Origin: an uncultured bacterium | GTDB taxonomy: Bacteria > Patescibacteriota > Minisyncoccia > Phycocordibacterales > UBA9973 | NCBI GenBank assembly: GCA_903894565.1 | Contig: CAITQP010000007.1 | Span: forward strand, 28,213 to 92,212 | DNA length: 64,000 bases | Reading direction: 5' to 3' | The notes under the pieces: generated by a model | Databases searched by the model: none | Seen by the model: the letters and a program-made list of their open reading frames with translations, nothing else | Told to the model about the DNA's origin: nothing | Part shown: positions 18,149-32,943 of the stretch, piece by piece | Position numbering within the stretch: position 1 is the first letter of the stretch | How the letters are laid out: each line of letters opens with the position of its first letter | Made by a program: the position numbers and the translations under genes

Positions 18149-18247
18149 CGCACTGCGACTCGAACTTTTCTTGAAAATACGTTGCTAAATATAGACTTCG
18201 GTTTTCAATTTCTTTGAAATTCTTGGTTCGAGTCCGAGCAGGGTCAG

Positions 18248-19369: not shown

Positions 19370-19407
19370 ATAACTAAATTTTATCACACATCATGCTTAA
19401 AATCTCC

Positions 19408-19581
19408 AAACACCCGGCCTGGATTCGAACCAACTCAATTAGCAAAAATACCTTCGCACTAGAAGGTATTTTTGCTAATCCACGCACATTTTGAATTTTT
19501 GACGCTTCTCGGTCTATAACCAACATTTCCTAAAATACGTTGGTAATTAAGGCCTTTCGGTCGGTCTCACTGTTTTGCTGC
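19408..19581. repeat. direct repeat copy B (~174 bp) containing tRNA-Gln-like T-arm fragment and AT-rich hairpin
   Basis: CCTGGATTCGAACCAA (19418-19433) is identical to 16 nt of the tRNA-Gln 3' half at 31886-31901. Hairpin AGCAAAAATACCTT-N10-AAGGTATTTTTGC at 19441-19476. Confidence 0.6.
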
Positions 19582-19712
19582 GGGGACTAGACCAAGTTAG
19601 AACCGCACTAATGACAATTTCGGACCTAAATCGATTCGCAATTGTGGCAAAATGGCAGACAATTATTTAATTAAAACGCCATTCTTGAGCTAACGTATTT
19701 TGAGGAATTTAC

Positions 19713-19740
19713 TTGACAAAGTATATATATTGTGTATAAT
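19713..19740 (+). promoter_or_regulatory. sigma70-type promoter TTGACA-N16-TATAAT
   Basis: TTGACA at 19713-19718, a 16-nt spacer, and TATAAT at 19735-19740, about 110 nt upstream of the ORF at 19851. Confidence 0.4.
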
Positions 19741-19850
19741 ACATACCGTTCATTGAACTATAGCGGGAATGGAGAAGTCCGCAGAAAGCCATCAAGGAAA
19801 CAATTGATCTCGGTCGCACTGACGTACAGGGCACAAACGCACATTTACAA

Positions 19851-20360
19851 ATGAAAAGCGTTAAACTAACACTCACAAAGCTTGGCATCGCCGCTTGTGA
19901 AAGAATGTTCAAACCAGGCATCGAAACAATCGAATTGCCAGGAATCGGAGAAATGAAGGTGGTGACAATCCTCACGCACGAGGATGAAGCCATTGACGTA
20001 ATGAGGCTCGAAGCAGAGCTACACCCAACCAGTTCTCGTGGCTGGATCAAGCAATGCCTCATGTGGGGAGTGAAGCTTGGACAGGAAGTTCTCCCAGAAT
20101 CAAATAATGGAGAGAGCATCATGAGCCTCATCGTCCGCACATTGGTCGCCCTCGACACCGAACATGTGCCGTGTAATTTTATCCTCATGCGGTCGCACGT
20201 CCGTGATGAGGGTGCCGTACAGCACAGGAGTGATTGTTACTACAACTATCACATCGCCCAGCCACAGCAGGAATTGATTGCCGTCGCCGTGCGGAACGCA
20301 AAAATCGCGGGGCATCACCCAGACCATGCGCTCATGCTGATACCTGGCGCACTTAGTTAA
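19851..20360 (+). CDS. hypothetical protein (169 aa)
   Basis: Preferred over the overlapping antisense ORF 19709..20188, which is low-complexity. A strong upstream promoter is present. Confidence 0.4.
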   Translation: MKSVKLTLTKLGIAACERMFKPGIETIELPGIGEMKVVTILTHEDEAIDVMRLEAELHPTSSRGWIKQCLMWGVKLGQEVLPESNNGESIMSLIVRTLVALDTEHVPCNFILMRSHVRDEGAVQHRSDCYYNYHIAQPQQELIAVAVRNAKIAGHHPDHALMLIPGALS

Positions 20361-20479
20361 AGAAAACAAATTGAAGTAACAGCCGTCCATCACAAGTGGG
20401 CGGCTTTATTTTTTATAGAATAAAAAAGAGGCTCTCAAAAAATGAAAGCCTCATAAAAATCTGTTTTGCACAATAGAAA

Positions 20480-21019
20480 TCAGGCAGTTGCCTTTTTAAA
20501 GATAAACCTCTCATGAATGGGAATCTTGTGCTTTATTCCGTCTGGCTCAAACAGTTTCAAAATCTCGGATTCAAGAATCCCTCCGAATGTCTCAACGGGG
20601 TAGCCTGCGTCCTCGACCAGTTGCCCGAACTGTATCTTTTTCTTCCGCACTGGAAGGTCTTTTCGGTGAACACCGAAAATAATTTCCCGTATGCCAGTCT
20701 GAAAAATGACAGAACTGCACATTTGGCAGGGTTCGGCAGTCGTGTAAATTGTGCATCCTTCGAGACGCTCACTGCGCTGTTCCTTGCACGCCTTGCGTAT
20801 CGCCACGATCTCAGCGTGATTGGTCGGGTCACAGGTATGCTTGTCTTTGGCATGACCCCTACCGATGACTTCGCCATTTCGCACGACGACCGCACCGATG
20901 GGAAGCTGATTTTTCTTTACTTTCTTGGCTTGCTTGATCGCCTCACGCATGAAATGCTCATCATACGGATTGTTCGCCCCGTGATTTGCTGGAGGGGGGG
21001 GTAACTCTTTTCTAACCAT
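20480..21019 (-). CDS. CDA-fold nucleoside/nucleotide deaminase (TadA-like) with ~50-aa C-terminal extension
   Basis: Zinc-binding motifs HAEIVAI and PCQMC. N-terminal DEHFMREAIKQAKK aligns with TadA. Confidence 0.7.
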   Translation of the reverse strand: MVRKELPPPPANHGANNPYDEHFMREAIKQAKKVKKNQLPIGAVVVRNGEVIGRGHAKDKHTCDPTNHAEIVAIRKACKEQRSERLEGCTIYTTAEPCQMCSSVIFQTGIREIIFGVHRKDLPVRKKKIQFGQLVEDAGYPVETFGGILESEILKLFEPDGIKHKIPIHERFIFKKATA

Positions 21020-21207
21020 GTCTATATTTTTTAGTGGGTTACCTGAAACTCCGAAAGCCAGAGGCTCGGGTAACCCACGAAAATCCTGTCAAAGAGCGAT
21101 GTATAATTTTACATTAACACGAATTGCATTTTTTGACAATCAAACTAAATCGTGTTATTTTTAAACCGAAAAAGCAAATTCATCACAATTCAAAAATATG
21201 ATCAATC

Positions 21208-22044
21208 ATGCAAACAGAAACACTTACTCGCCCAAAGAGCGAAGTCATGAAAGAGCTTCGCTCGGCACTCATAGCCGCATTTGAAATCATTGGCTACAAG
21301 AATTTCGTACACTACAGAATATCCAAGGAAAATCACCTCACATCGTATTTCGACATCACCATCTTGGGCGATGAGAATGCGGACAAGAGGAAGCTGAAAT
21401 GGGATGCCCTGCTGGATTCTATTATCAGGGAGTTCGAGACGGAAGCGAACTTCAAGGTGCTGGACGACCAGAACGAGCAGATCCGCTTGTGGGTCGGACA
21501 GGAATGCGAACTGCGCCAGAGCCAGCCGAAGAAAGAGATCGTCATCGCGGTTGAAGAAATTGTCGAGGAAGTGATTGAACAGTTGTCATTTTTTTCTCCA
21601 CTGATTCCCGTCAAAAAGGAAGAGAAGCCGAAACCCGTGCCCGTCGCACAAGCACCCAAAGCAAAGGTCATGGTCAAGCCGAGCATGTTTCTCAAATCAC
21701 ACAAGAAAGGCAAGGCGATCTACGACAAGAGGATTCTGGCGGACATGTACATGACAATCTATATGTCACTACAGAAAGAAGCCAAGCTGAAACTTGGAAG
21801 CGACTTCAGCCTGAGCAATCCCGATGGCTCGTCGCTTGAGCTAAAGTTCGTCCCGAGCCAGAGCAACGCTGGGCTGTCTGTCGCAGAGAGAGTTTCAAGA
21901 GCGCGCACGCATTTTGAGACCAAGTTCAACAACGATACGACCAATCCTTATTTTCCCATTACGCTCGGCAAGGATTCCGTGCATGAGGAGATTATCGTTT
22001 TGAACGTCGCCGAGGAATATCACAGGCGATGCGAGACAAAGTAA
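21208..22044 (+). CDS. hypothetical protein (278 aa)
   Basis: ORF in a region that looks GC-richer than the flanks by eye, followed by a terminator. No recognisable domain. Confidence 0.5.
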   Translation: MQTETLTRPKSEVMKELRSALIAAFEIIGYKNFVHYRISKENHLTSYFDITILGDENADKRKLKWDALLDSIIREFETEANFKVLDDQNEQIRLWVGQECELRQSQPKKEIVIAVEEIVEEVIEQLSFFSPLIPVKKEEKPKPVPVAQAPKAKVMVKPSMFLKSHKKGKAIYDKRILADMYMTIYMSLQKEAKLKLGSDFSLSNPDGSSLELKFVPSQSNAGLSVAERVSRARTHFETKFNNDTTNPYFPITLGKDSVHEEIIVLNVAEEYHRRCETK

Positions 22045-22059
22045 TTGCATTTTTATTTT

Positions 22060-22097
22060 AGGGCTACCCGCTGAACGCTGGTAGCCCTATTTTTTTC
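22060..22097 (+). terminator. rho-independent terminator
   Basis: AGGGCTACC ... GGTAGCCCT hairpin followed by ATTTTTTT. Confidence 0.5.
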
Positions 22098-22129
22098 TAA
22101 AAATAAGAATCGGTGCGTTCTCAAAGAAA

Positions 22130-24475
22130 TCAGAATGAATCTTTCAAAGAATCCCAGCCAGTAAATGAGTCTGAATGCGAATATTTTTCATTAGTGTTAA
22201 TCTTCCATCCATTCGGACCGTCCTGCACAGCTATACCTCCATCAAAACCTTTTTTGCTTTTGAGCCATACCCGAAGTGCTTCCGCTTTGTAGGTCGTGTC
22301 CGGCATCTCGGCTGTCGAGCCCTTCTTGGTGTCAATGACCCAAACCGCGCTTTTCGTCTTTACGATCCAGTCAGGATAAAAGAGCTTCTCCTTGTTCTCG
22401 TCGGGATTGAAATACGAGATCGAGAAGTATTCACTTCCGGCGTCGCCGTTCTTGTACCACCAAAGAACACTCTTGTGTGCTTCGAGGAATGAGATGAACT
22501 CCTTTTCGTTATCTTCGCCTTTATATTCCTTTTCGATGTAGAACGGCTGTAGCGCCGATTTTTCGGCTTTGATCTTTGCCTCCTTGGCTGTGTGGTAGGC
22601 ATCAGTGAAAAAGAGCGTCTGGCGCGGGATTTCAATCGTCTCCGTGCGCTTGGACCGCTCGGATTTTTTGTTCACCTCGCGCTCGCGGATCGGGCGATAG
22701 GTGGCTAGGGCGTCGCCGACGACGGGAGCAAGGACGCTCGCCGGATTGAGCAGATCGGCCACCACGATCCGGTAGATCGTCTGGCGCGTTTCGCCGATCC
22801 GGTTCAGGAGCCAAACATTTAGAGCCGTCTTCAGCTTGCCCCAGGAACGTTCGGGAGCGAACTTCTTATTCTCGTCCACTTGCTTGGAGATAAGCGCAAA
22901 GCATCGGAGATTATAGAGACGTTCAAGGTCGTACTGTGACATCTCCTGATCGTGCTCGCTTCCCTCGGAGAGAAGCTCCCTGGTGAAGTTGTCATAGTCG
23001 TCGATTTCAACGCCAACAATGATACCGTTGGTCACTATCGGTTCTGGCTCAAGGTTCTTGGCGGCGAGCTTTTTGAGGGCCACTTGCTTGCTATCATTTT
23101 TGGAGATGCCGAAGTATTTATCGGCCGCTTTGGAGAACGTCTCTTGAAAGCTGTCACCAAGGTCATTGTAGTCTGTGCGGCTCATGAAGATTGACTCAAG
23201 CTCGACCGGCTCGACGTCCTCCCTGCGGTGGCTCGGGAAAATAGCCGGACGATTATCGGACTTTGATTTGGCATATTCCGCGAGAACTTCGTTGCGCTTG
23301 TAGTTCGTGTAGAGATAGCCCACGTTCAGCTCCGGCCGCGCGAAATGGACACCGAGCGGCATACGGAGGATACGTCCGACCGTCTGGATGGCGAACGTCG
23401 GGTTCTTGATCTCACGAAACATGACGAGCACTCCCGCGCGTGGGCAATCCCATCCAGTCGCGGCGGCTTGCTTGAACAGGAGGAATGACTTGGGCGAGTT
23501 ATTTTTCTCGATGTCCTGTAAATTAACCTTGTCATCCGAGAGCCAAACGGCGATTTCGTCTTCGAGAACGCCTTTCTGCTTCAAGAAGTTGAGAACTATA
23601 TTCTGTTTGTTGACTGTAGCCGTGTCCTTGCTGGCCTGGTCGTCATTCGGAAGCTGTATAAGGACGAGCGGATTGATGTCTTTGCCGAGCGATTTGTAGT
23701 GTACGGCAAGCTCGCGCCGCTTGTCGAAAGCGAGGGCAAGGAGGATGTCGTCCTGGTCCATGCTCTTGAACTCCTTACGATTAAGGTCTTCTTCTGTCTG
23801 AAAAATGATTTTCTCTTTAATAAGTCCTGCCTCCACGACGTCGTCCCGCTTGGCCTGGACGAAGCCACCGCGCCGCTCGCCAATCTCCTCGGCGTTCGGG
23901 ATATACTTCGGCGTAGCCGAGACGCGGATCGTGATTTTCGGCTGAATGAGGCCGTCCACGATCTCCATGGCAAGGTCCGTGTCGGACCCGATGTGTTCCT
24001 CGTCGATGATAACCACGAGCTTGCGTCCGTCCTCGTGAGTACGGTTGATGACGTTGTCGAACGTGAAGCCCCACTCGTTCTCTTTGCGGAGCTTGCGACT
24101 CTCTTTGCTCTTGCCTTTAATCTTCTGCCAGTTGATGAAAAAGACCGAGTTCTTTGAAAGCTTGCCTCGTGTCAGATCGTTGAGATCAAGCAGGTCGAGT
24201 TCGGATGCGCCGCCGTAGTATTCAAAGAGTTTGTTCTTGCTCTGGACATACGAGTCCTCGCTGAACGTAAGCCAAAGAAAGGCAACATCGTTTCCCTGGA
24301 AGCGCGGATCGCCGACAAGGTCCCGAAGGAACTGCGCGATCATGATCGTTTTGCCCGAGCCGGTAGGCGATTTGAAAACGAGCGGGATGTTCTGGTGCGG
24401 CGATTTCCAGAGCGAAAGGAATTCATCCTTGAGCTTCGCTACGGTCGTTTCTTGGAATGGTTTGAGTGCAAACAT
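22130..24475 (-). CDS. res: Type III restriction-modification system restriction subunit (Res)
   Basis: Helicase motif I SPTGSGKTIM and motif II IIDEEH. C-terminal PD-(D/E)xK (YPDWIVKTKSAVWVIDTKKG). The ATG at 24475 directly follows the mod stop codon (TAATATG). Confidence 0.8.
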   Translation of the reverse strand: MFALKPFQETTVAKLKDEFLSLWKSPHQNIPLVFKSPTGSGKTIMIAQFLRDLVGDPRFQGNDVAFLWLTFSEDSYVQSKNKLFEYYGGASELDLLDLNDLTRGKLSKNSVFFINWQKIKGKSKESRKLRKENEWGFTFDNVINRTHEDGRKLVVIIDEEHIGSDTDLAMEIVDGLIQPKITIRVSATPKYIPNAEEIGERRGGFVQAKRDDVVEAGLIKEKIIFQTEEDLNRKEFKSMDQDDILLALAFDKRRELAVHYKSLGKDINPLVLIQLPNDDQASKDTATVNKQNIVLNFLKQKGVLEDEIAVWLSDDKVNLQDIEKNNSPKSFLLFKQAAATGWDCPRAGVLVMFREIKNPTFAIQTVGRILRMPLGVHFARPELNVGYLYTNYKRNEVLAEYAKSKSDNRPAIFPSHRREDVEPVELESIFMSRTDYNDLGDSFQETFSKAADKYFGISKNDSKQVALKKLAAKNLEPEPIVTNGIIVGVEIDDYDNFTRELLSEGSEHDQEMSQYDLERLYNLRCFALISKQVDENKKFAPERSWGKLKTALNVWLLNRIGETRQTIYRIVVADLLNPASVLAPVVGDALATYRPIREREVNKKSERSKRTETIEIPRQTLFFTDAYHTAKEAKIKAEKSALQPFYIEKEYKGEDNEKEFISFLEAHKSVLWWYKNGDAGSEYFSISYFNPDENKEKLFYPDWIVKTKSAVWVIDTKKGSTAEMPDTTYKAEALRVWLKSKKGFDGGIAVQDGPNGWKINTNEKYSHSDSFTGWDSLKDSF

Positions 24476-24476
24476 A

Positions 24477-26216
24477 TTAGAGTCGGTTAATTTCCTTGTA
24501 AACCTCAATGATCGGCTCGGGAATATCCTCGACTCGGATATGGTCTGTTGAGTACTCGTTTTTGTATTCGTTCTTACCCCAACTGAAAGCGTAAAGGACG
24601 ACAGGGGTGTTCTTCTTTTCGAGCAATTTTATGAGTTCGGGAAGCTTGGTTTTGTCCTCCTTGAAGTAGATGGCGGTCAGCTTGCCGTTGCCCTCGAAAA
24701 TCTGCCACCAATCGGTACGCTCGATTTCGCTGAGCGTATCCTCACGGAGTGCGATCATCTCTCCGGCTTGATGGGATATTTTAACCCTTGCTTCGTCCGA
24801 AATTTTCTGGAGCTTGTCGATGTTCACGAGATCGGTCTTGTAGTACGAGAGATTGCCGCCGAGACCGGAAACGGCCTCGCCCTTCTTGTTCTTGTAGCCT
24901 TTCATGACGCGCTTGATGCGTTCGTAGGTCACTTCCTCGCAAATCTTGTTCTCGTTATTGGTACAAAGAATGAAGCGACGGTTGCCGCCGTCTTGCTTGT
25001 TGAGTTCGAGAACTGCGTGGCCGGTCGTGCCCGAACCGGCGAAAAAGTCAAGGACCGTGGCGTTTTTATCTTCCGACAAAACAAGTATCGAGTCTATAAG
25101 CGCATGAAGTGATTTCGGGTAGTCAAACTTTTTTTCTCCAAGTAGAGATGTTAGTAAGTTCGCACCCATTGATGAGGCAGAGTAATCGGGCTTATCCCAA
25201 ATCGTATAAGGCAACATCCATTCATCACGCATTCTGCCTTTGTAGTAGACCGAGGGATTTTTGTCTTTGTCTAAACGAACGCCCATCTCGGTATTTTTTA
25301 CCGCTTCAACAGTATCGATTGACCATTTCCACGTTCTCTCGCGCCCGTTCGGGTCTACAGGGATTGAAATTACTTCGGAAGCATTAGGCTTTTCTAAAAG
25401 GTCATAAGATTGCCTCTCCGTATTCCATTTTAATTTTGGTATCCGAAAGCCCGAGCAATCCTTCTTTACGAAGATAGGATACTTCATTCTTGGTGACTCA
25501 GTACTGTATTGAGCGCGGAAGTTTCTCCACTCAAACGGACCATTAGCATCGGATTGTTTATAGCGATCGATCTGTTCCTGAGTTCTTGGAAGCCTACCAA
25601 TTTTTGCTTTCGACGAACGACCGTAAAAAAGTGCATACTCGTGAGAAACCTGAAAACCAGAAACACTAGAGCGTCCTTGCGGATTGTTTTTTATTACAAC
25701 TGTCCCAAGATGATTTTCTTCTCCAAATATTTCATTCATCAAAAGCGTCAAGGTGGCAATCTCGTAATCGTCGATGGTTACGAGAATTATTCCTTCATCT
25801 TTTAAGAGCGAACGTGCCAGGCGTAATCGCTTTTCCATAAAGCTAAGCCATTTACTGTGACGAAAAGCGTCGTTGCCATCGACGTAGTCATTGTTATAAA
25901 TCCAGTTTTTTGCTCCTGTGTTGTATGGCGGATCAGCGTATATTGCATCAACTTTTCCTGAATGAGTATAGTTTAAAACTGAAAGCGAATGATAATTGTC
26001 TCCCTCTATTAAAATGTTTTTCGGTAAGCAATCATTATTGACGATTTTCCTACTCTGGACCTCCTTCAAAAGTGGCACGTTCTCCGCGCATTGCAAAACA
26101 ACATCCTCCGGTTTGTGTTCCCAAACCAAGCCGTATTTTTTCTGGTTCTTTAATTTTTTGATCTCGGATTGTAAATCGGAGATGCGAGCCAGTAGCTCTT
26201 TTGTATTTTCTGACAT
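24477..26216 (-). CDS. mod: Type III restriction-modification system N6-adenine methyltransferase (Mod)
   Basis: DPPY motif (YADPPYNTG) and SAM-binding FFAGSGTTGHAV. Sits immediately upstream of res on the same strand. Confidence 0.8.
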   Translation of the reverse strand: MSENTKELLARISDLQSEIKKLKNQKKYGLVWEHKPEDVVLQCAENVPLLKEVQSRKIVNNDCLPKNILIEGDNYHSLSVLNYTHSGKVDAIYADPPYNTGAKNWIYNNDYVDGNDAFRHSKWLSFMEKRLRLARSLLKDEGIILVTIDDYEIATLTLLMNEIFGEENHLGTVVIKNNPQGRSSVSGFQVSHEYALFYGRSSKAKIGRLPRTQEQIDRYKQSDANGPFEWRNFRAQYSTESPRMKYPIFVKKDCSGFRIPKLKWNTERQSYDLLEKPNASEVISIPVDPNGRERTWKWSIDTVEAVKNTEMGVRLDKDKNPSVYYKGRMRDEWMLPYTIWDKPDYSASSMGANLLTSLLGEKKFDYPKSLHALIDSILVLSEDKNATVLDFFAGSGTTGHAVLELNKQDGGNRRFILCTNNENKICEEVTYERIKRVMKGYKNKKGEAVSGLGGNLSYYKTDLVNIDKLQKISDEARVKISHQAGEMIALREDTLSEIERTDWWQIFEGNGKLTAIYFKEDKTKLPELIKLLEKKNTPVVLYAFSWGKNEYKNEYSTDHIRVEDIPEPIIEVYKEINRL

Positions 26217-26475
26217 AGGCGATACTATGTCAGGCGGTTCTTATTGAAATTGAAGCTCAAAAAGGGGGACGCCTGATGATCGCCACATAGTACATAGGCC
26301 GAGGCCGTCGCTCATGTGCATCAGGTGTTGCCCCCTTGTTGCTCACGAACGACAGCCCGGCCCCTTTTGAAGGGCTTGGTCCAATACTATGTGGCGATAA
26401 GTATAGCTTAACAGAAAAACCAATTTTTTACACTAAACGTGGTAAAATGACTATTCATAAAACAAAAAAAACGCC

Positions 26476-27846
26476 ATGAATGATTATCAGCCCGAATGGA
26501 AAATCTACCTTTGGAGAAAAATGCTTGTCGGACACAGCGATGAGACCGTTCTTCACTCTATTCGAGATTTTATCTATTTTGACGAGTCCGAGCAGAGGGA
26601 TTTGATGCTCAAAGAAGCTCAAGGTTCAATCGATGCGATCAATACGTCATACACCAAAGCAATCAGCACCAAAACACCAATGGAAGTCGATAGCGGCGAC
26701 GCTCTCAGCCACACTGAACGTTTTTATAATTCCAATGTCGAGAACGCATTTTTAGGTTTGCTCGGGTTGAACAGTGAGACTCCGGCGGGGCTCACTTTGA
26801 GTGAACTATATATTACGCCCAAATATATCGAAAAATATCAGCAAGATGTCCGACGACGCGCCGCACAGGAAGAAAAGAAAAGGATCGCATCGATCAGTGG
26901 CGGGCACGCATACCGAAGCGAGAAAGCTGACGCGTATTTGAGAGATAAATTTTGCGGGTTGGGTTCAACCATTTTCAATAAGGTCCAAAACTCTCAATTT
27001 TTGACGATTACCGATCTGGTGACTCTGATGCAAATTAACGACCCTCTGATATGGCAAAATCTCACGTTCAAAATTGAAATCCACGAAACCGCCCTCCGAA
27101 AAATCTTATCGGACTACCTCGACGAGTTTCGGACTGGCGACCTACTCGGCGCTCCGAAGATGCGATATTTCAGCTATCCCAAGCAACGGGAAAAATTGAT
27201 AGAGGCGATCAAAGTCCTAACTGAAAAATACGACTCAAAAAATCTTCGGGTTACATTTGAAGAATTGGCCAGAGCGGGAGGATGGTACTTGAAGGATGAA
27301 AATCATTTTCGTTTCTACGAGACGATGTTCTCGCTTGAAAAAGAGAATGTGATAAAAATCATTGACTTGGTCAAAGAGGAAATAATTATCTCCCTCACCC
27401 GAGATTTCATGATGGATCAGCAAGCCATCGATGAAGGCAATCACCCTTTCAGTGGGACCGCTGCCGAAACTGCGTACTTCCTTGATTTTGATCCAAAAAC
27501 GAGAGAGCTTGTTCTTAACAAGGAGTACATTCTCTCTACTCCTAATTTTTCCAGCGAGAACCACAATTTCATCGAGTATGTTTTTGCGCGGCCAAACGAA
27601 AAAATCACCAAGGAGGAAATAGAGACTGCGATAAAAAAATCTCTGGGAAAGAGCTTTCATCAAATCCTAAACGACCTTGGTTTCAAGGGCGAATTGAGGA
27701 AAATGTTTTTTCCGAGCGTTTCAAAAGACGGCATCATTTTTGAAAACAGCATTTCATATAAAGATTTTGAGGATCGAAAGATTGATACTAAAAAATTAGC
27801 TTTGGATATAAAAAAATTACACAAATTAAGAAGTAGTAAGAAATAG
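26476..27846 (+). CDS. hypothetical protein (456 aa)
   Basis: Long ORF with no recognisable motif. First gene of a plus-strand block that ends with the integrase and recombinase. Confidence 0.5.
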   Translation: MNDYQPEWKIYLWRKMLVGHSDETVLHSIRDFIYFDESEQRDLMLKEAQGSIDAINTSYTKAISTKTPMEVDSGDALSHTERFYNSNVENAFLGLLGLNSETPAGLTLSELYITPKYIEKYQQDVRRRAAQEEKKRIASISGGHAYRSEKADAYLRDKFCGLGSTIFNKVQNSQFLTITDLVTLMQINDPLIWQNLTFKIEIHETALRKILSDYLDEFRTGDLLGAPKMRYFSYPKQREKLIEAIKVLTEKYDSKNLRVTFEELARAGGWYLKDENHFRFYETMFSLEKENVIKIIDLVKEEIIISLTRDFMMDQQAIDEGNHPFSGTAAETAYFLDFDPKTRELVLNKEYILSTPNFSSENHNFIEYVFARPNEKITKEEIETAIKKSLGKSFHQILNDLGFKGELRKMFFPSVSKDGIIFENSISYKDFEDRKIDTKKLALDIKKLHKLRSSKK

Positions 27847-28030
27847 TCAGAAAGACATTGAACTAACAAGATAACGGCTATGGAATAGTGGCGACATGGG
27901 ATGCTCAAATTGAGCTCCTTTTTGTTTTGCTCAACTAAATGCCATGGAAAAAATCCGAGCAGGTTCTCTGTTTGCTTGGTCTGTCTGTTCATGGCGTTCG
28001 GACGGATCAAGCAAAGAGTGAGCCTGCACT

Positions 28031-28213
28031 ATGTTACCAGAACAGGCCATTGACGAATATATCAAGATGTTCCGAAAGAAGTTCGGAGTCACGCTTTCCA
28101 GACAGGAAGCGTCATTTCGTGCTAACCATTTGGTCAATCTGTATAAGGCGGTCCTTGGCCCAGAGTCATCTGGGGAAGTAAAAAAGGTCGAGAAACCAAA
28201 CGATAGCCGTTAA
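28031..28213 (+). CDS. hypothetical small protein (60 aa)
   Basis: Short ORF in the same orientation within the element. Confidence 0.3.
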   Translation: MLPEQAIDEYIKMFRKKFGVTLSRQEASFRANHLVNLYKAVLGPESSGEVKKVEKPNDSR

Positions 28214-28217
28214 TCCT

Positions 28218-28562
28218 ATGACAAGGATCAACGGCCAAAAAATCATCGGTTCGACAAGTTATACAATCAAAGAACTTGCGAGAGATGCGGATGTGAATGA
28301 GAAAACTTGCTTGCGTTGGATCGAACAGGGGCTCCCGACCGTTCCTGGCGGGAAAAATCCGATCCTCATGCGCGGCTTTGAGATCAAAGATTTTTTGAGA
28401 AAAAAAGACTCAAAAAAGAAAATAAAATTGAAGCGACACGAGTTTTATTGTCTCAGATGCAAGGCCGCGCGGAGCGCAAAGCGAAACACGATCAAGAAGC
28501 TAAACGGGCGAAAAACAGGCGAATGTCGTGTCTGCAACGGGAAAATGAGCCGGACAATCTAA
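28218..28562 (+). CDS. HTH (excisionase/MerR-like) DNA-binding protein with C-terminal CxxC zinc ribbon
   Basis: YTIKELARDADVNEKTCLRWIEQG helix-turn-helix. C-terminal CLRCK...CRVCNGK. Confidence 0.5.
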   Translation: MTRINGQKIIGSTSYTIKELARDADVNEKTCLRWIEQGLPTVPGGKNPILMRGFEIKDFLRKKDSKKKIKLKRHEFYCLRCKAARSAKRNTIKKLNGRKTGECRVCNGKMSRTI

Positions 28563-28703
28563 CCCTGCCAAAAGGACTAAATGATATTCTCTCTCCCAAC
28601 TTAAATGTCCGTTTAGAGCGAGAAACGCGCGTATCGATTCGGTAACAAAAAGAACCCTAAAAAAGCAGGCAATTATCAAACTAAAAAACACTAAATTAAT
28701 TCT

Positions 28704-28937
28704 ATGGAAACACCATCAAACGAAGAAAAAATCGAGCTAAAAATCAGCCTCAGAAATATACCGTATGTTGTCTCTGCTCTTGAATCGGAAATAGAGCATC
28801 TGAAAAAAATCCAGAAAGCCTGTACTAAGAAAAAGCAATTCCAAGCGGCAAACGATCTCCTACCCGGAATTATGCTCTTAGAAAAAATGGCAAAACACTT
28901 GAAGCCCATGAAGCCGACCCCATTACCTCTTACCTAA
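28704..28937 (+). CDS. hypothetical small protein (77 aa)
   Basis: Short ORF immediately upstream of the integrase. Confidence 0.3.
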   Translation: METPSNEEKIELKISLRNIPYVVSALESEIEHLKKIQKACTKKKQFQAANDLLPGIMLLEKMAKHLKPMKPTPLPLT

Positions 28938-28949
28938 CCATTCTTAGTC

Positions 28950-30062
28950 ATGAAAACACCTTACGAAAACGAGCAGATAAAGAGGCAATTCTTTGAGCAG
29001 TTAAAAGGCGCTCGGGGGTTTGCCAAAAGCTCGGTGCGTACTCACGCCGACGCCATCACACAATGGGATACCTTCAATCAGAACGAGGACTATTCCACCT
29101 ACGATAAATCAAAAGCTGCCGCCTTTACGGAGTGGCTCAGCACGAGACCCGCCAAATCAAAATCCGGCAAAGTTTCCCTTGTTACCCAGTCGAACTATAT
29201 TCGCCGCATAAAGAAGTTCTTTGAGTGGCTTTGCGAACAGCCCGGCTACAAGAGCAAGATACAAAAAAACGATGTGGACTACTTACGCCTCTCAAAAGCG
29301 GATGCCCAAATCGCACGTTTGGGAACCACCAAAAAAATGCCTACCTTTGAGGACGCTAAAAAGATAATCGAGGGCATTGATGGCAAGTCCGAAATCGACA
29401 TGCGCGACCGTGCCCTCATCTCTTTTGCGCTCATCACGGGTGCTCGCATCAATGCCATCATTTCCTTGAAGATGAAAAGCTTTGACAAAGAGAAGAAACA
29501 AATCGACCAGAACCCAGGTGACGGAGTGAAGACCAAAAACACGAAACGAATACTTACCACATTCTTCCCAATTGGTTGGGACGATCCAGAAAAATATTTC
29601 ATGGAATGGTATGAGTACTTGGAGTCAAAGGGTTTTGGACCTGATGAGCCGATCTTTCCGATGACATCCCATTCTTTTGGCGGAGGAGAAAATAGCTACA
29701 GTAAAGAAGCCATTGGGCAAGATGCTTGGGTTGGCACAGGCGCGGCACGCAAGATTTTTGAAAAGCGATGCAAAAGTGCCTACCTTCAGTATTTCCACCC
29801 GCACTCCTTTCGCCATTTGGTTGTAAGCATCCTTAGCAAGAAACGCCTTACCGAGGAAGAGAAGAAAGCGATCAGCTTAAATCTGGGACACGAGAATGTC
29901 ACGACCACATTTGGATCATATGGATATGGCGCTATGAGCAATACGGATGCCGTCAAAATCGTTCAGAAATTGAAGGATATTCAAGAAGGTTCGAGCGATA
30001 CTCTGGCACTCACCGACCAAGAAAGGGCCGTTTTCGAGAAAATAGCTAAGCGTATCTTGTAG
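28950..30062 (+). CDS. int: tyrosine-type site-specific recombinase/integrase
   Basis: Catalytic Arg in ALITGARINAI, box II HPHSFRHLVV (HxxR), and LGHENVTTTFGSYGYG containing the catalytic Tyr region. Confidence 0.8.
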   Translation: MKTPYENEQIKRQFFEQLKGARGFAKSSVRTHADAITQWDTFNQNEDYSTYDKSKAAAFTEWLSTRPAKSKSGKVSLVTQSNYIRRIKKFFEWLCEQPGYKSKIQKNDVDYLRLSKADAQIARLGTTKKMPTFEDAKKIIEGIDGKSEIDMRDRALISFALITGARINAIISLKMKSFDKEKKQIDQNPGDGVKTKNTKRILTTFFPIGWDDPEKYFMEWYEYLESKGFGPDEPIFPMTSHSFGGGENSYSKEAIGQDAWVGTGAARKIFEKRCKSAYLQYFHPHSFRHLVVSILSKKRLTEEEKKAISLNLGHENVTTTFGSYGYGAMSNTDAVKIVQKLKDIQEGSSDTLALTDQERAVFEKIAKRIL

Positions 30063-30091
30063 ACTTGCAATGTAAACAATAGTAAAGTAAA

Positions 30092-30274
30092 ATGAAAGAC
30101 ATGGAACAAGATTTTTACACCGCCCGAGATTTGGCCGACAGGCTCGGCCTGAACATTATGACGATCTACCGCTGGATCGGAGCGAAGAAGCTCAAAGCGT
30201 ATAAGCTCGGCAAGGAATTCAGAATTGAGAAAAAGGATTTCGATGCTTTCTTAAAGAAGGCAAGCAATAAATAA
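30092..30274 (+). CDS. excisionase-family HTH DNA-binding protein (Xis/AlpA-like)
   Basis: 60 aa with YTARDLADRLGLNIMTIYRWI, the HTH_17 pattern. Confidence 0.6.
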   Translation: MKDMEQDFYTARDLADRLGLNIMTIYRWIGAKKLKAYKLGKEFRIEKKDFDAFLKKASNK

Positions 30275-30278
30275 CATT

Positions 30279-31925
30279 ATGCAAACAGAAGCACCACAAA
30301 AACTCAAATACGGCATGTACGGCCGAAAATCTAGCGAGACCGAAGATCGCCAGGTCCTTTCGATTGACTCCCAGATCGATAGCGCAAAAGCTATCTGCAA
30401 AAACCTCAATATCCGTATTGCGGATGAGGATGTTTTAACCGAGTCAAAATCAGCAAAGACCACAAACCATCGCCCGCTATTCAAGGAGATGCTCGACCGA
30501 CTAGAGCATGGCAAGATCAACGCCATCGTCGCGTGGCACGCTGACCGCCTCTCGCGTAACGCCATCGACTCCGCACTCCTCGTCGATATGATGGATCGCG
30601 GCAAGCTGATCGAAATTGTTACTCCTGGGCAAACGTATCGAAATACGCCATTTGATAAGTTCATGTTCACTCTCGCTTGTACCCAAGCAAAAATGGAAAA
30701 CGACAAGAAAGGTATCGACGTTACGCGAGGGCTTACAAAGAAAGCGACTATGGGTATGTTCCCTGGCCCTGCGCCGTTCGGCTATCTGAATGATAAGTTT
30801 ACAGAGAAAGGAAATAAAAAAATCATCACCGACAAAGTGCGTCTCCCTCTTATCCGCAAAATGATGGAGCTGATGCTAACCGGCACATACGGACCACTTC
30901 AAATCCGAGAGATTGCAACGAACGAGTGGGGCTACCGAACTCCCAAAGGCAAGAAGATGGGTCGAAGCACGATCTATCGCATCTTCACAAATACCTTTTA
31001 CTACGGCATGTACGAGTACCCACTCGGAAGCGGTCGTTGGTATCGTGGAACGCACGAGACGATCATCACCGAGGAGGACTACGACAAAATCCAAGCACTC
31101 CTCGGTCGTAAGGGCCGTCCTCGTCCGAAGACCCATATCTTTGATTTCGTAGGAATGATGAAGTGCGCCGACTGCGGCGCGTCTATTACAGCCGAAACAA
31201 AGTTCAAGAAACTCGCCAATGGCGATGTGAACACTTACGTTTACTATCACTGCACCAAGAAGCTCAATCCGAACTGCACGCAAGGATCAATAGAGGAAAA
31301 GGAACTTAAAAAGCAGATCGTCCGCGAGATCGACAAAATCGAAATACCAACCGAGTTCCACGCCTTTGCCATGAAATGGTGGAAGACCGAAAACGAGAAG
31401 GAAGTCGACGACCGCAACACTATCGTCGAAGCCCAACAGAGGGCCTATAAGGCTTGCCTTGCGAAGATAGACGGCCTGACCAATATGAGAGCGGGCGGCG
31501 AAATCGAGGGGGACGAATTTATCCGACGCCGAGAGCCGCTTCTTGAAGAAAAGAAGCGTTTGGAGAAACTATTTGAAGGCACGGGTAAACGCGTTGATGC
31601 CTGGATGAAGACCGGCGACGAAATGTTTACTTTCATCGAGCGAGCAATAAACCGCTTCACTTACGGTACACTTGAAGACCGCCGAGCCATACTTGCGGCT
31701 CTCGGCTCGAACCTACTCATAAAAGACAAAATACTCAGTATTGATATAGAGAATTGTCTATTCCCAATACAAAATATTTCAGGCACTGTCCGAGACATAA
31801 AAGAACGGCTCGAACCAATAAATACCCTGGAAAAACAAGGACAGTTTGAGCAAATGTGCTCTAACAGTCCAGTAGTGCTGCCAGACCTGGATTCGAACCA
31901 AGATACACTGCTCCAGAGGCAGTAG
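30279..31925 (+). CDS. large serine recombinase (resolvase domain plus recombinase domain plus zinc ribbon)
   Basis: N-terminal YGMYGRKSSETEDRQ...SIDSQ (catalytic Ser) and a resolvase fold. Zinc ribbon CADCGAS...YYHC. The 3' 48 nt overlap the tRNA-Gln on the opposite strand. Confidence 0.85.
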   Translation: MQTEAPQKLKYGMYGRKSSETEDRQVLSIDSQIDSAKAICKNLNIRIADEDVLTESKSAKTTNHRPLFKEMLDRLEHGKINAIVAWHADRLSRNAIDSALLVDMMDRGKLIEIVTPGQTYRNTPFDKFMFTLACTQAKMENDKKGIDVTRGLTKKATMGMFPGPAPFGYLNDKFTEKGNKKIITDKVRLPLIRKMMELMLTGTYGPLQIREIATNEWGYRTPKGKKMGRSTIYRIFTNTFYYGMYEYPLGSGRWYRGTHETIITEEDYDKIQALLGRKGRPRPKTHIFDFVGMMKCADCGASITAETKFKKLANGDVNTYVYYHCTKKLNPNCTQGSIEEKELKKQIVREIDKIEIPTEFHAFAMKWWKTENEKEVDDRNTIVEAQQRAYKACLAKIDGLTNMRAGGEIEGDEFIRRREPLLEEKKRLEKLFEGTGKRVDAWMKTGDEMFTFIERAINRFTYGTLEDRRAILAALGSNLLIKDKILSIDIENCLFPIQNISGTVRDIKERLEPINTLEKQGQFEQMCSNSPVVLPDLDSNQDTLLQRQ

Positions 31926-31948
31926 TCCTACCATTAGACGATCTGGCA
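31878..31948 (-). tRNA. tRNA-Gln (anticodon CTG)
   Basis: Cloverleaf folded by hand: acceptor TGCCAGA/TCTGGCA (U1-A72 as in bacterial tRNA-Gln), D arm GTCT/GGAC, anticodon stem ACTGC/GCAGT with loop CTCTGGA, T arm CTTGG-TTCGAAT-CCAGG, discriminator G. CCA is not encoded. Confidence 0.8.
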
Positions 31949-32923: not shown

Positions 32924-32943
32924 TACTAAAAGTAGTTTTTTGT
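32923..32943 (+). terminator. rho-independent terminator (CTACTAAAAGTAG + T-run)
   Basis: Short hairpin followed by TTTTTTGTG, sitting between the convergent LOG and pyrG genes. Confidence 0.4.

What the first reader, a model, noticed from the sequence alone, without database searches (positions are those of the whole stretch)
19408..31948. ~12.5-kb mosaic integrated element at tRNA-Gln carrying two recombinase types, Type III RM, a deaminase and unknown cargo
Right boundary: an intact tRNA-Gln (minus strand). The 3' end of the large serine recombinase ORF extends 48 nt into its 3' half, so the element supplies part of the tRNA.

Left boundary candidate: the 16-nt tRNA-Gln-identical fragment in repeat B.

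Content, from left to right:
- a promoter-driven 169-aa unknown protein;
- a CDA-fold deaminase with a C-terminal extension;
- a 278-aa unknown protein;
- Type III res (22130-24475) and mod (24477-26216);
- a plus-strand operon: 456-aa unknown, 60-aa, HTH-plus-zinc-ribbon protein, 77-aa, tyrosine integrase, Xis-like HTH, large serine recombinase.

The 19.7-26.3 kb block appears GC-richer than both flanks by eye, which suggests at least two origins.

Carrying a tyrosine integrase and a serine recombinase side by side is unusual.
Basis: partly seen in the sequence, partly recalled or inferred. Interest (0 to 1): 0.65.

Follow-up and report, generated by a model that had tools for sequence, protein, structure and literature searches.

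The report
Integrase gene split by its own integration
This is a real 12.3-kb mobile element inserted at the very end of a tRNA-Gln gene in a Patescibacteria-like genome; the attachment site lies inside its own large serine recombinase gene, so insertion swaps the enzyme's last ~30 amino acids for ones read off the tRNA.

Summary

**Boundaries.** The element spans 19576-31880 (12,300 bp) between two copies of TGCTG(C). The 16-nt T-arm match at 19418 is a relic inside the native flank downstream of the tRNA, not an att site. The element supplies about 5 nt of the tRNA, not half of it.

**Split recombinase gene.** The conserved part of the large serine recombinase (LSR) ends exactly at the tRNA 3' end. 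The remaining codons are antisense tRNA. The true last ~30 codons (..LDQVRTALMTISDLNRFAIVAKW..) lie detached at the left end, 19581-19670.

**Supporting evidence.**
- Homologues carry this tail fused in one ORF, including one on a 9,885-bp circle assembled in five separate runs.
- Three further integrated elements show the same split.
- The att half-sites show the LSR signature: an inner TGGAC, and an outer motif shifted 5 bp between attP and attB.

**The family.**
- The backbone (tyrosine recombinase, excisionase-like HTH, LSR) is conserved across Patescibacteria elements. Cargo varies, though Type III RM recurs.
- Element proteins are 90-95% identical between hosts whose housekeeping proteins are 74-82% identical.
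- Many relatives have an empty site.

**Unknown.** The function of the tail swap and the role of the tyrosine recombinase.

The parts
19408..19575 (.). It is not part of the element and serves as the B arm of attL.
   Evidence: It is 82% identical to repeat A at 17975-18148. Repeat A is about 70% identical over 114 nt to the DNA across and just downstream of the tRNA-Gln 3' end in the empty-site relative L150, and repeat B matches that flank by inspection. The TCGGTC..TCAC motif also sits next to tRNA-Gln in L189.
19576..19581 (+). attL core TGCTGC. The inferred crossover dinucleotide is TG at 19579-19580.
   Evidence: The same hexamer occurs at 31876-31881. TGCTG is the only sequence shared by the left and right junctions in the window, L086 and L088. 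It lies at the centre of the dyad GTCCA-N16-T(A/G)GAC.
19581..19670 (+). Detached 3' end of the LSR gene: the P' arm of attP followed by the tail codons RGLDQVRTALMTISDLNRFAIVAKWQTII and a stop.
   Evidence: It is in frame with the LSR when joined at the core. It matches an HMM of tails from full-length homologues at E = 1e-15. Homologous pieces lie at the distal ends of L086, L088 and L220. The motif F-x-hydrophobic-V-x-x-W is kept through synonymous codons.
19713..19740 (+). Consensus sigma-70 promoter upstream of the 169-aa ORF.
   Evidence: TTGACA-16-TATAAT, 12 of 12 positions matched.
19851..20360 (+). 169-aa cargo protein of unknown function.
   Evidence: No hit in Pfam, PADLOC, NCBIfam or PHROGs. 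Absent from sister elements.
20480..21019 (-). CDA-fold zinc deaminase (179 aa) of unknown substrate; cargo.
   Evidence: dCMP_cyt_deam_1 at 1.3e-30 and MafB19-deam at 5e-28. The TadA model scores 86.7 bits, below its 150-bit cut-off. PHROG dCMP deaminase at 8.7e-21.
21208..22044 (+). 278-aa cargo protein of unknown function.
   Evidence: No family hits.
22130..24475 (-). Type III restriction subunit (res).
   Evidence: ResIII at 1.6e-13 and REase_III at 9e-17. It is 90% identical to res in L084 and 78% to res in L085.
24477..26216 (-). Type III methyltransferase (mod).
   Evidence: N6_N4_Mtase at 2.2e-33 and MTase_III at 3.5e-92. It is only 58% identical to mod in L084 although res is 90% identical. 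Swapping of the target-recognition domain is my inference.
26476..27846 (+). 456-aa protein in the hypervariable slot between mod and the backbone. It may carry a C-terminal winged-helix DNA-binding domain.
   Evidence: Only 3 homologues in the 5.8-billion-protein search. Proteins in this slot are mostly not alignable between elements. The AF2 model has pLDDT 68, and its best fold matches are weak: ToxR/OmpR wHTH at E = 0.03.
27959..28027 (.). Long hairpin (27-nt arms) just upstream of the backbone operon.
   Evidence: Arms are 81% complementary with a 15-nt loop.
28031..28213 (+). 60-aa backbone protein.
   Evidence: 54-85% identical in seven other loci, including L216, which has no tyrosine recombinase.
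28218..28562 (+). 114-aa backbone protein with an HTH and CxxC..CxxC motifs.
   Evidence: 49-85% identical in six other elements. The HTH matches mad1 and PHROG excisionase/regulator models weakly.
28571..28610 (+). Conserved non-coding element AAAGGACTA-N24-AATGTCC upstream of the recombinase genes. It is a candidate promoter/operator or tyrosine-recombinase site.
   Evidence: Present with identical spacing in 7 elements, although the neighbouring proteins are only 49-66% identical in the more distant ones.
28704..28937 (+). 77-aa protein, present in some elements only.
   Evidence: 78-95% identical in L084, L085 and L087. No homologue was detected in L086, L088 or L212.
28950..30062 (+). Tyrosine recombinase, Xer-like (370 aa); backbone.
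   Evidence: Phage_integrase at 4.4e-13 plus SAM-like N-terminal domains. The best NCBIfam hits are XerA/XerC/XerD, all below cut-off. It is 59-95% identical in six sister elements and is kept in the 3.8-kb minimal element L220.
30092..30274 (+). Excisionase-family HTH (60 aa). Its stop lies 4 nt before the LSR start.
   Evidence: HTH_17 at 1e-12. TIGR01764 'excise' scores 49.8 bits, above its cut-off. In L087, L210 and L218 its ORF overlaps the LSR start.
30279..31925 (+). Large serine recombinase, integrated form (548 aa). Codons up to 31880 are element DNA; the last 15 codons and the stop are antisense tRNA-Gln.
   Evidence: Resolvase, Recombinase and Zn_ribbon_recom domains. The conserved ..EKQxQFEQxCxxSPVVL motif ends at the tRNA 3' end in six loci, and the tails beyond it vary from 13 to 61 nt.
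31876..31881 (+). attR core TGCTGC. It covers the last acceptor-stem bases, the discriminator and the first trailer bases of the tRNA.
31877..31948 (-). tRNA-Gln(CTG), the host attB target. It remains intact.
   Evidence: ARAGORN and Rfam. The same tRNA lies next to CTP synthase-FtsX-FtsE, with no LSR beside it, in many relatives.

Best explanation
The window carries the integrated form of a small integrative element, 12,300 bp long (19576-31880), from a family widespread in Patescibacteria.

**Shown by sequence**
- The element's attP lies inside the 3' end of its own large serine recombinase (LSR) gene.
- Recombination with the extreme 3' end of tRNA-Gln separates the last ~30 LSR codons from the rest of the gene. 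The core is TGCTG and the central dinucleotide is TG, at the end of the acceptor stem.
- The detached codons now lie at the far (left) end of the element, 19581-19670.
- The LSR ORF instead runs antisense into the host tRNA until it meets a stop codon.
- The tRNA is left intact. Only about 5 nt are shared between the junctions.

**Inferred**
- The LSR, not the tyrosine recombinase, catalyses integration and excision at this site.
- The excisionase-like HTH that sits directly upstream of the LSR start is its directionality factor or regulator.
- The free form is a circle on which the full-length LSR is made.
- The swap of the C-terminal peptide (conserved F-x-hydrophobic-V-x-x-W-COOH) makes LSR activity or stability depend on integration state.
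- The conserved Xer-like tyrosine recombinase has a separate role, most plausibly resolving multimers of the circular form.
- The Type III RM system, the deaminase and the unknown ORFs are exchangeable cargo.
For: 1. **The LSR ends at the tRNA.** In the window and in L084-L088 the conserved LSR sequence ends exactly at the tRNA 3' end. The codons after it are antisense tRNA of variable length, 13-61 nt. Of the 120 best homologues, 59 end in antisense T-loop peptides such as ..DSNQ/P...
2. **The detached tail.** Window 19581-19670 continues the LSR frame when joined at TGCTGC. It matches the tails of full-length homologues at E = 1e-15.
3. **Full-length forms exist.** At least nine homologue clusters carry the tail in one ORF (P0013, P0016, P0032, P0036, P0062, P0102, P0104, P0106, P0111). 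P0016 lies on a 9,885-bp circle: five assemblies gave 9,915-nt contigs with 30-nt terminal repeats that are exact rotations of one another. This circle has the same gene order as the window element would have if circularised.
4. **Independent attL/attR pairs.** L086, L088 and L220 each carry a detached tail 3.8-9.3 kb upstream of the LSR.
5. **The tail is a selected peptide.** F, V and W are invariant. All four Val codons are used, and Arg-Ser is written as AGA AGC, CGG AGT and CGC TCT.
6. **LSR-type att architecture.** Numbering from the central TG, TGGAC occupies 9-13 in P, P' and B'. GTTAGAACC occupies 17-25 in P', while the tRNA T-loop (A/C)TCGAACC occupies 13-20 in B'. This is the 5-bp shift of the zinc-ribbon-domain motif described for LSRs (PMC3783163).
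7. **The LSR is the common factor.** A 43%-identical LSR sits at the same tRNA-Gln junction in L206 with no tyrosine recombinase found in the 5.7 kb of contig beyond the LSR gene. That element carries a Prim-Pol/AAA_25 protein instead. L216 has the in-gene attP with no tyrosine recombinase within 10 kb.
8. **Mobility.** Against L084, LSR and tyrosine recombinase are 95% identical and res 90%, whereas CTP synthase is 76%, FtsX 74%, FtsE 82% and LOG 79%. Many related loci have the same tRNA-Gln next to CTP synthase-FtsX-FtsE with no LSR beside it. Composition is atypical.
9. **The reconstructed empty site matches real ones.** The flank left of attL abuts the tRNA-Gln 3' end in L150 and L189.
Against: - No experiment and no read-level evidence shows that this particular copy excises.
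- Tyrosine integrases are the classical tRNA-targeting enzymes. One is conserved 1.8 kb from the junction, together with an excisionase-family HTH whose nearest solved relative (4j2n, Gp37) I recall, without checking, to be the Xis of a tyrosine-integrase phage. A 5-6 nt core would not by itself exclude a tyrosine recombinase.
- The B half-site in the host flank shows no clear motif.
- The AF2 model gives the tail low confidence (pLDDT 36-50), so nothing supports a specific structural role.
- Codon-position statistics over the whole tail are underpowered.
- No replication or transfer gene was recognised in the element, so calling it a plasmid-like replicon is inference.
Confidence: 0.8

Rival explanations
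1. This is a classical tRNA island. The tyrosine integrase, with its excisionase-like HTH, integrates and excises the element at tRNA-Gln. The serine recombinase is a passenger acting as a resolvase or invertase, and its ORF merely happens to abut the junction.
For: Tyrosine integrases dominate tRNA sites: 44.5% of Y-Int elements use them, against 4.9% of S-Int elements (PMC7192596). The tyrosine recombinase and an excisionase-family HTH are conserved in the backbone. The HTH's nearest solved relative is 4j2n (Gp37), which I recall, without checking, to be a tyrosine-integrase Xis.
Against: - No copy of the tRNA 3' segment lies at the distal end. Only TGCTG is shared, and no repeat of 12 nt or more was found in L084-L089.
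- The att half-sites follow the LSR pattern, including the 5-bp shift.
- The LSR ORF crosses the junction in every member.
- LSR-only elements use the same junction (L206).
- The in-gene attP exists without any tyrosine recombinase nearby (L216).
Confidence: 0.1
2. The region is two or more independent islands stacked at the tRNA: a recombinase module plus a separately acquired GC-rich RM/deaminase block. In that case 19.6-31.9 kb is not one mobile unit.
For: GC and tetranucleotide content differ between res (0.52) and the backbone and p456 (0.42-0.46). The left cargo (169 aa, deaminase, 278 aa) is unique to this element. An older single-gene insertion flanked by repeats A and B lies directly to the left.
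Against: - A single attL/attR pair brackets the whole block, and the split LSR gene ties the two ends together.
- Type III res/mod occupies the same position in L084 and L085, in the free circle L212 and in L218, so RM travels with the backbone.
- No internal att-like sequence was found; the P' motif occurs once per integrated element.
- Cargo mosaicism within one element fits all of this.
Confidence: 0.07
3. The block is an immobile, vertically inherited remnant, effectively core genome in this lineage, and the split ORF is decay.
For: The element occupies the same chromosomal position in the window, L084, L085 and L088. All contigs holding the identical LSR carry the element.
Against: - Element proteins are much more similar than host proteins.
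- Many relatives have an empty site.
- Sister elements lie in other neighbourhoods and at tRNA-Ser.
- A circular form exists.
- Both halves of the LSR, both recombinases and the tail ORF are intact.
Confidence: 0.03

Closest known systems
Large serine recombinase (serine integrase) elements: SPbeta SprA/YokA, Listeria A118/LI, Bxb1, phiC31, TP901-1
   Same: The domain set is the same: Resolvase, Recombinase and zinc ribbon, followed by long helices. The nearest solved relative is the SPbeta integrase, E = 1e-12. The int gene sits at the element end. attP is dyad-symmetric, about 50 bp, around a non-palindromic central dinucleotide. The outer motif is 5 bp closer to the centre in attB than in attP.
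   Different: The target is the 3' terminus of a tRNA gene. In 2020 S-Int use of tRNA genes was described as not previously reported (PMC7192596). attP lies inside the integrase ORF, so integration replaces about 30 C-terminal residues. The LSR is always partnered with a Xer-like tyrosine recombinase. The hosts are Patescibacteria.
Integration-dependent immunity of mycobacteriophages (BPs, Brujita; Broussard 2013, reviewed in PMC9262239)
   Same: attP lies inside a coding sequence next to the integrase. attB overlaps a tRNA 3' end. Integration swaps the protein's C-terminus, with the stop codon supplied by host DNA, and this changes the protein's stability.
   Different: There the recombinase is a tyrosine integrase with a common core of about 35 bp that rebuilds the tRNA end, and the split gene is the repressor. 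Here the recombinase is a serine integrase, the core is 5 nt, and the split gene is the integrase itself. No degradation tag has been shown here.
SSV1-type archaeal integrases, whose int gene is partitioned on integration into a tRNA gene (from my own knowledge; not checked here)
   Same: attP lies within the integrase gene, the target is a tRNA gene, and the integrated form carries a disrupted or altered int.
   Different: Those are tyrosine recombinases of archaeal viruses. The gene is cut into two large parts and presumably inactivated. Here only the C-terminal peptide is exchanged and all catalytic and DNA-binding domains stay intact.
Small integrative plasmids and AICEs at tRNA genes, such as pSAM2 and SLP1 (PMC2440964)
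   Same: They are elements of about 10-17 kb that exist both as free circles and as forms integrated in a tRNA gene.
   Different: Those use a tyrosine integrase with Xis and have recognisable replication and transfer genes. Here no Rep or transfer gene was recognised, and the junction has serine-integrase architecture.

Membership tests
Large serine recombinase (serine integrase) | N-terminal resolvase catalytic domain with the conserved R-x-S nucleophile motif | tested here: met
   PF00239 at 2.2e-21. Y14, R16, K17 and S18 are invariant among 14 and 41 homologues.
Large serine recombinase (serine integrase) | Recombinase domain plus zinc-ribbon domain with an embedded coiled coil | tested here: met
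   PF07508 at 7.4e-11 and PF13408 at 1.1e-9. The AF2 model of homologue P0016 shows long helices at 358-462 after the zinc ribbon.
Large serine recombinase (serine integrase) | attP and attB share only a short core around a non-palindromic central dinucleotide, with the outer (ZD) motif 5 bp closer to the centre in attB | tested here: met
   The core is TGCTG and the centre is TG. TGGAC lies at 9-13. GTTAGAACC lies at 17-25 in P', against TCGAACC at 14-20 in B', in three elements. The reference model is in PMC3783163. Only the tRNA-side half-site of attB shows the motif clearly.
Large serine recombinase (serine integrase) | Catalyses attP x attB recombination; excision needs a directionality factor | not testable with these tools
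   Indirect evidence only: a free circle carrying intact attP and four integrated elements with attL/attR pairs (window, L086, L088, L220).
Tyrosine-integrase tRNA island | A direct repeat of the tRNA 3' segment at the distal end, typically 15 bp or more, rebuilding the tRNA | tested here: not met
   Only 5-6 nt are shared. No repeat of 12 nt or more occurs in L084-L089. The 16-nt T-arm match in the window lies in the native flank and has a non-matching acceptor stem.
Tyrosine-integrase tRNA island | A tyrosine integrase encoded next to the tRNA-proximal junction | tested here: inconclusive
   A Phage_integrase gene lies at 28950-30062, 1.8 kb from the junction, but the LSR gene sits between them and crosses the junction.
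Type III restriction-modification | A mod methyltransferase and a res helicase-nuclease encoded as adjacent co-oriented genes, mod first | tested here: met
   MTase_III at 3.5e-92, REase_III at 9e-17 and ResIII at 1.6e-13. mod occupies 24477-26216 and res begins 2 nt after the mod stop.
Type III restriction-modification | A C-terminal endonuclease motif in Res, and cleavage activity | not tested
   Only a weak C-terminal PADLOC match (PDLC03648, E = 0.0028) was seen.
Integration-dependent gene alteration (as in mycobacteriophage BPs) | attP lies inside an ORF, so the free and integrated forms encode different C-termini | tested here: met
Integration-dependent gene alteration (as in mycobacteriophage BPs) | The lost C-terminus is a degradation tag that controls protein level | not testable with these tools
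   The tail ends in F-x-hydrophobic-V-x-x-W. It has no ssrA-like LAA ending, and its function is unknown.
tRNA adenosine deaminase TadA (for the 179-aa deaminase) | Score above the NCBIfam equivalog cut-off | tested here: not met
   86.7 bits against a cut-off of 150. It can only be called a generic CDA-fold deaminase.

The most novel reading that the evidence does not exclude
A large, uncharacterised clade of serine integrases (1,963 homologues at E <= 1e-20, mostly from Patescibacteria) targets the 3' terminus of tRNA genes, using the tRNA T-arm as one attB half-site. These enzymes carry attP inside their own ORF, so each integration or excision rewrites the enzyme's C-terminal peptide. Under this reading the rewrite is a built-in switch: it senses integration state and sets directionality, activity or stability. 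The always-linked Xer-like tyrosine recombinase would maintain the circular form.
Probability: 0.35. Interest if true: 0.85.

Novelty: new variant of a known kind. Interest (0 to 1): 0.72.

Why it matters
- **tRNA genes as serine-integrase targets.** tRNA genes are regarded as the territory of tyrosine integrases. A 2020 survey called S-Int use of tRNA genes previously unreported and in need of proof. This family offers many natural attP/attB/attL/attR sets in which the tRNA T-arm serves as a half-site.
- **A recombinase that changes with integration state.** A recombinase whose own C-terminus depends on whether the element is integrated suggests a self-contained way to control directionality, which is an open problem for serine integrases and matters for their use as genome-engineering tools.
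- **A recurrent Patescibacteria element.** The work defines a mobile element of ultra-small Patescibacteria that carries defence cargo (Type III RM) and exists as a circle of about 10 kb. It could be a starting point for genetic tools in a group that has almost none.
- **A practical rule.** An LSR ORF ending in ..DSN(Q/P).. marks an integration at a tRNA. The detached ..LDxVRT..VxxW ORF fragment marks the other end of the element.

Tried and rejected
- **IMG/VR scan with the LSR.** No relatives were found.
- **GTDB scan with the neighbouring LOG protein.** The best hits were only about 50% identical and had no tRNA-Gln synteny, so it gave no empty site.
- **Exact-protein look-ups of the window's LOG and LSR.** They returned only the same strain, with the element present.
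- **Search for direct repeats of the tRNA 3' segment.** Nothing beyond the 16-nt T-arm relic turned up.
- **AF2 model of a full-length LSR (P0016).** The tail has low confidence and no docking could be inferred.
- **AF2 and Foldseek for the 456-aa protein.** The model has pLDDT 68 and gave only weak wHTH matches.
- **Synonymous versus non-synonymous counts over the whole tail.** The sequence is too short and the register differs between elements. I used the terminal motif instead.
- **P0039 and P0081, first counted as intact-tail forms.** L220 showed that P0039 is an integrated 3.8-kb minimal element at a non-tRNA site that resembles attP. It has its own detached tail.
- **A Xer/loxP-like inverted-repeat site for the tyrosine recombinase.** None was found. 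There is only a conserved 40-nt non-coding element upstream of its gene.
- **Literature searches.** I found no description of this family or of a serine integrase with an in-gene attP.

Full report
**1. What is in the window**

ARAGORN and Rfam place an intact tRNA-Gln(CTG) at 31877-31948 on the minus strand. The 548-aa ORF at 30279-31925 has the Resolvase, Recombinase and Zn_ribbon_recom domains of a large serine recombinase (LSR). It runs 49 nt, stop codon included, into the 3' part of the tRNA on the opposite strand.

- a CDA-fold deaminase at 20480-21019 (below the TadA cut-off);
- Type III res at 22130-24475 and mod at 24477-26216 (PADLOC MTase_III, 3.5e-92);
- a Xer-like tyrosine recombinase at 28950-30062;
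- an excisionase-family HTH at 30092-30274;
- proteins of 169, 278, 456, 60, 114 and 77 aa with no or only weak family matches.

A perfect TTGACA-16-TATAAT promoter lies at 19713-19740.

Composition is atypical. GC over res is 0.52, against 0.441 +/- 0.017 in host 2.5-kb windows. Tetranucleotide distance reaches z = 7 over 21-25 kb.

The flanking genes (LOG-family protein, CTP synthase, FtsX, FtsE), their closest database relatives and the source names of the LSR homologues point to a Patescibacteria (CPR) genome with no close species representative.

**2. The proposed left boundary fails**

The 16-mer CCTGGATTCGAACCAA at 19418 is real and non-random. But it is only the T-arm. The adjoining acceptor-stem bases differ from those of tRNA-Gln: CACCCGG against TGCCAGA.

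The 16-mer lies inside a 176-nt direct repeat, 17975-18148 and 19408-19581, 82% identical. Its copy A is about 70% identical over 114 nt to the DNA across and just downstream of the tRNA-Gln 3' end in L150, a relative with an empty site, and copy B matches that flank by inspection. A similar motif sits next to tRNA-Gln in L189.

Repeat B is therefore the native flank of the tRNA, displaced by the insertion. The T-arm-like pieces within it are old relics.

**3. The family and the key observation**

The LSR has 1,963 homologues at E <= 1e-20. Where a source names them, the names are Paceibacterota, Minisyncoccia, Bacteroidota or simply 'bacterium'.

In every context I fetched (L084 to L089) the LSR gene is preceded by a ~370-aa tyrosine recombinase, in most of them with a ~60-aa HTH_17 gene between the two (absent in L088 and L089). 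Its 3' end overlaps a minus-strand tRNA:
- tRNA-Gln(CTG) in L084, L085, L088 and L089;
- tRNA-Gln(TTG) in L086;
- tRNA-Ser in L087.

The conserved LSR sequence (..EKQxQFEQxCxxSPVVL) stops exactly at the tRNA 3' end. The remaining 13-61 nt of ORF are antisense tRNA, read until the first stop codon. Of the 120 best homologue clusters, 59 end in antisense T-loop peptides such as ..DSNQ/P...

So the ORF reads out of the element into host DNA. The element does not donate half a tRNA.

**4. The missing end of the gene**

Directly to the right of repeat B, window 19581-19670 continues the LSR reading frame if joined at the hexamer TGCTGC. That hexamer occurs at both 19576-19581 and 31876-31881. The joined frame reads ..SPVVL|RGLDQVRTALMTISDLNRFAIVAKWQTII*.

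- **Fused in homologues.** At least nine homologue clusters have this tail fused in a single ORF, for example P0016 ..VLRVLDEVRTSIMFNFSTKFSIVNTW and P0111 ..LRALDDVRTSILSITNYALFGMVRSW.
- **HMM match.** An HMM built from such tails (the window's and L086's own tails included) scores the window piece at E = 1e-15.
- **Other integrated elements.** The same HMM finds detached tails at the distal ends of L086 (2559-2640) and L088 (2282-2358). A motif search then found one in L220, a minimal 3.8-kb element holding only the tyrosine recombinase, the HTH and the LSR.
- **A translated, selected peptide.** In six DNA sequences, F-x-hydrophobic-V-x-x-W is invariant. Val uses all four of its codons, and Arg-Ser is written as AGA AGC, CGG AGT and CGC TCT.

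**5. A free circular form**

P0016 lies on 9,915-nt contigs from five separate sequencing runs. Each contig has a 30-nt terminal repeat, and all are exact rotations of one 9,885-bp circle.

Its gene order is: small ORFs, tyrosine recombinase, HTH_17, full-length LSR, a 151-aa ORF, res(-), mod(-). This is the order the window element would have if circularised at TGCTG.

L218 is a second contig, 10.1 kb, with an intact attP, RM cargo and no tRNA. It is not proven to be circular.

**6. Which recombinase acts here**

The junction pairs of the window, L086 and L088 share only TGCTG. The reconstructed or intact attP sites are dyad-symmetric, GTCCA-N16-T(A/G)GAC, with TG at the centre.

Numbering each half-site outward from that centre:
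- TGGAC occupies positions 9-13 in P, P' and the tRNA-side B';
- the outer motif GTTAGAACC occupies 17-25 in P';
- the tRNA T-loop sequence (A/C)TCGAACC occupies 13-20 in B'.

This is the arrangement described for serine integrases. The recombinase-domain motif keeps its position, and the zinc-ribbon-domain motif lies 5 bp closer to the centre in attB than in attP. In the Listeria integrase model the shift is from 16-24 to 11-19 (PMC3783163).

Two further observations point to the LSR:
- A 43%-identical LSR sits at the same junction in L206. No tyrosine recombinase was found in the 5.7 kb of that contig beyond the LSR gene, and a Prim-Pol/AAA_25 protein is present instead.
- L216 has the in-gene attP with no tyrosine recombinase within 10 kb.

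I therefore attribute integration to the LSR with confidence of about 0.8.

The crossover falls on the last acceptor-stem bases, so the mature tRNA sequence is unchanged. Its native downstream flank, however, now lies 12.3 kb away.

**7. Mobility**

A scan of metagenome contigs with the 5' half of this tRNA-Gln returned 120 loci.
- Many have CTP synthase-FtsX-FtsE next to the tRNA and no LSR beside it. These are empty sites.
- A few have an LSR abutting the tRNA: L094, L161, L201, L204 and L206.

Comparisons with occupied relatives show the element is more conserved than the host:

| Comparison | Element proteins | Host proteins |
|---|---|---|
| Window vs L084 | LSR 95%, tyrosine recombinase 95%, res 90% | LOG 79%, CTP synthase 76%, FtsX 74%, FtsE 82% |
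| Window vs L085 | LSR 86%, tyrosine recombinase 78% | CTP synthase 64%, FtsX 48%, FtsE 59% |

The element has therefore moved between hosts more recently than those hosts diverged.

**8. Anatomy of the family**

- **Backbone.** The conserved backbone is 28031-31880: the 60-aa protein, the 114-aa HTH/zinc-ribbon protein, sometimes the 77-aa protein, the tyrosine recombinase, the HTH_17 protein and the LSR.
- **Conserved non-coding element.** A 40-nt sequence, AAAGGACTA-N24-AATGTCC (28571-28610), lies upstream of the recombinase genes in seven elements.
- **Hypervariable slot.** The slot between mod and the backbone varies greatly. The window's 456-aa protein has only three homologues. Its model gives only weak matches to a ToxR/OmpR-type winged helix.
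- **Type III RM.** It recurs in the same position in L084, L085, L212 and L218. mod diverges much faster than res (58% against 90% identity to L084). I read this as exchange of the specificity domain.
- **Unique cargo.** The 169-aa protein, the deaminase and the 278-aa protein are unique to this copy.

**9. What remains inferred**

- **Function of the tail exchange.** It is unknown. The AF2 model is uninformative there. Possible roles are control of stability or of directionality. The nearest analogy is mycobacteriophage integration-dependent immunity, where attP lies inside the repressor gene and integration removes a degradation tag (PMC9262239). Another is the SSV1-type partition of an integrase gene, which I cite from my own knowledge.
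- **Role of the tyrosine recombinase.** It is unknown. It is kept even in the 3.8-kb minimal element, so it is core to the element rather than cargo. Multimer resolution of the circle is my best guess.
- **Replication and transfer.** No replication or transfer genes were recognised.

**10. Novelty**

Serine-integrase elements are a known kind of mobile element. The new aspects here are:
- the target, the 3' end of a tRNA gene;
- attP inside the integrase ORF, with the resulting change of C-terminus;
- the obligate pairing with a tyrosine recombinase;
- the Patescibacteria hosts.

A 2020 survey stated that S-Int use of tRNA genes had not been reported and needed proof (PMC7192596). My literature searches found no description of this family. 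That library is incomplete, however.

Noticed in passing
window 17935-19581: Repeats A (17975-18148) and B (19408-19581), 82% identical, bracket a single 379-aa minus-strand gene at 18248-19387. Repeat A continues into a decayed tRNA-Gln 3' end, GCTGCCGCACTGCGACTCGAAC, at 18144-18165. L150 has the same layout (remnant, one unrelated 327-aa gene, flank, tRNA-Gln). This looks like an older insertion of a different kind at the same tRNA: a single-gene cassette flanked by ~190-bp repeats with no recombinase of its own.
   Followed up: partly
window 17975-18250 and 19408-19600: The native flank downstream of tRNA-Gln is full of T-arm-like fragments: 17980-18000, 18075-18096 and 19413-19433 on the tRNA's own (minus) strand, and 18217-18246 in the opposite (plus-strand) sense. 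Rfam gives a weak tRNA-like (mascRNA) hit at 18194-18245. L163 has two tRNA-Gln genes 90 nt apart. These may be decayed tandem tRNA genes or scars of earlier integrations.
   Followed up: partly
window 28571-28610 (and L084 6581-6620, L085 8318-8357, L086 8591-8630, L087 8321-8360, L088 8809-8848, L212 1857-1896): The non-coding element AAAGGACTA-N24-AATGTCC has invariant ends and spacing in seven elements whose neighbouring proteins are only 49-85% identical. It could be a promoter/operator of the recombinase operon or a binding site for the tyrosine recombinase or the 114-aa HTH protein.
   Followed up: partly
window 27959-28027: A long hairpin (27-nt arms, 81% complementary, 15-nt loop) lies immediately upstream of the first backbone gene. 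It caused spurious miRNA-family hits in Rfam. Its function is unknown; it could be an RNA leader, an origin or a recombination site.
   Followed up: no
L220 7850-11660 (also L221): A minimal 3.8-kb member of the family holds only the tyrosine recombinase, HTH_17 and the LSR, with its own detached tail (..VLDEVRTFIMLNSSTKFSIVNTW*). It is integrated at a site where ARAGORN finds no tRNA. The host-side sequence there resembles attP (TTGAACGAAGTTCGAA).
   Followed up: partly
L206 (tRNA-Gln 1280-1351; LSR 1291-3045): An unrelated element uses the same tRNA-Gln junction. It has an LSR 43% identical to the window's, a Prim-Pol/AAA_25 replication protein and a small resolvase, and no tyrosine recombinase.
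   Followed up: partly
L216 (79-kb contig), LSR 10001-11695: A full-length-tail LSR (49% identical to the window's) sits among conjugation and plasmid-type genes (TrwB-like, Replic_Relax, DUF87, PDDEXK) with no tyrosine recombinase nearby. This LSR clade is therefore not confined to the small elements.
   Followed up: no
window 24477-26216 compared with L084 2142-3953: mod is only 58% identical between two elements whose res genes are 90% identical. DNA similarity is lost from about 25055 up to the backbone at 28030, apart from a ~300-nt patch of about 69% identity near the mod 5' end. This suggests exchange of the Type III specificity region and of the adjacent variable gene.
   Followed up: no
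window 32769-32937: A 57-nt-arm inverted repeat (88% complementary) lies between the convergent LOG and CTP synthase genes. It shares the hairpin motif AGCAAAAATACCTT..AAGGTATTTTTGCT with the hairpins in repeats A and B (18008-18047, 19437-19479). This may be a recurring terminator or repeat family in this genome.
   Followed up: no
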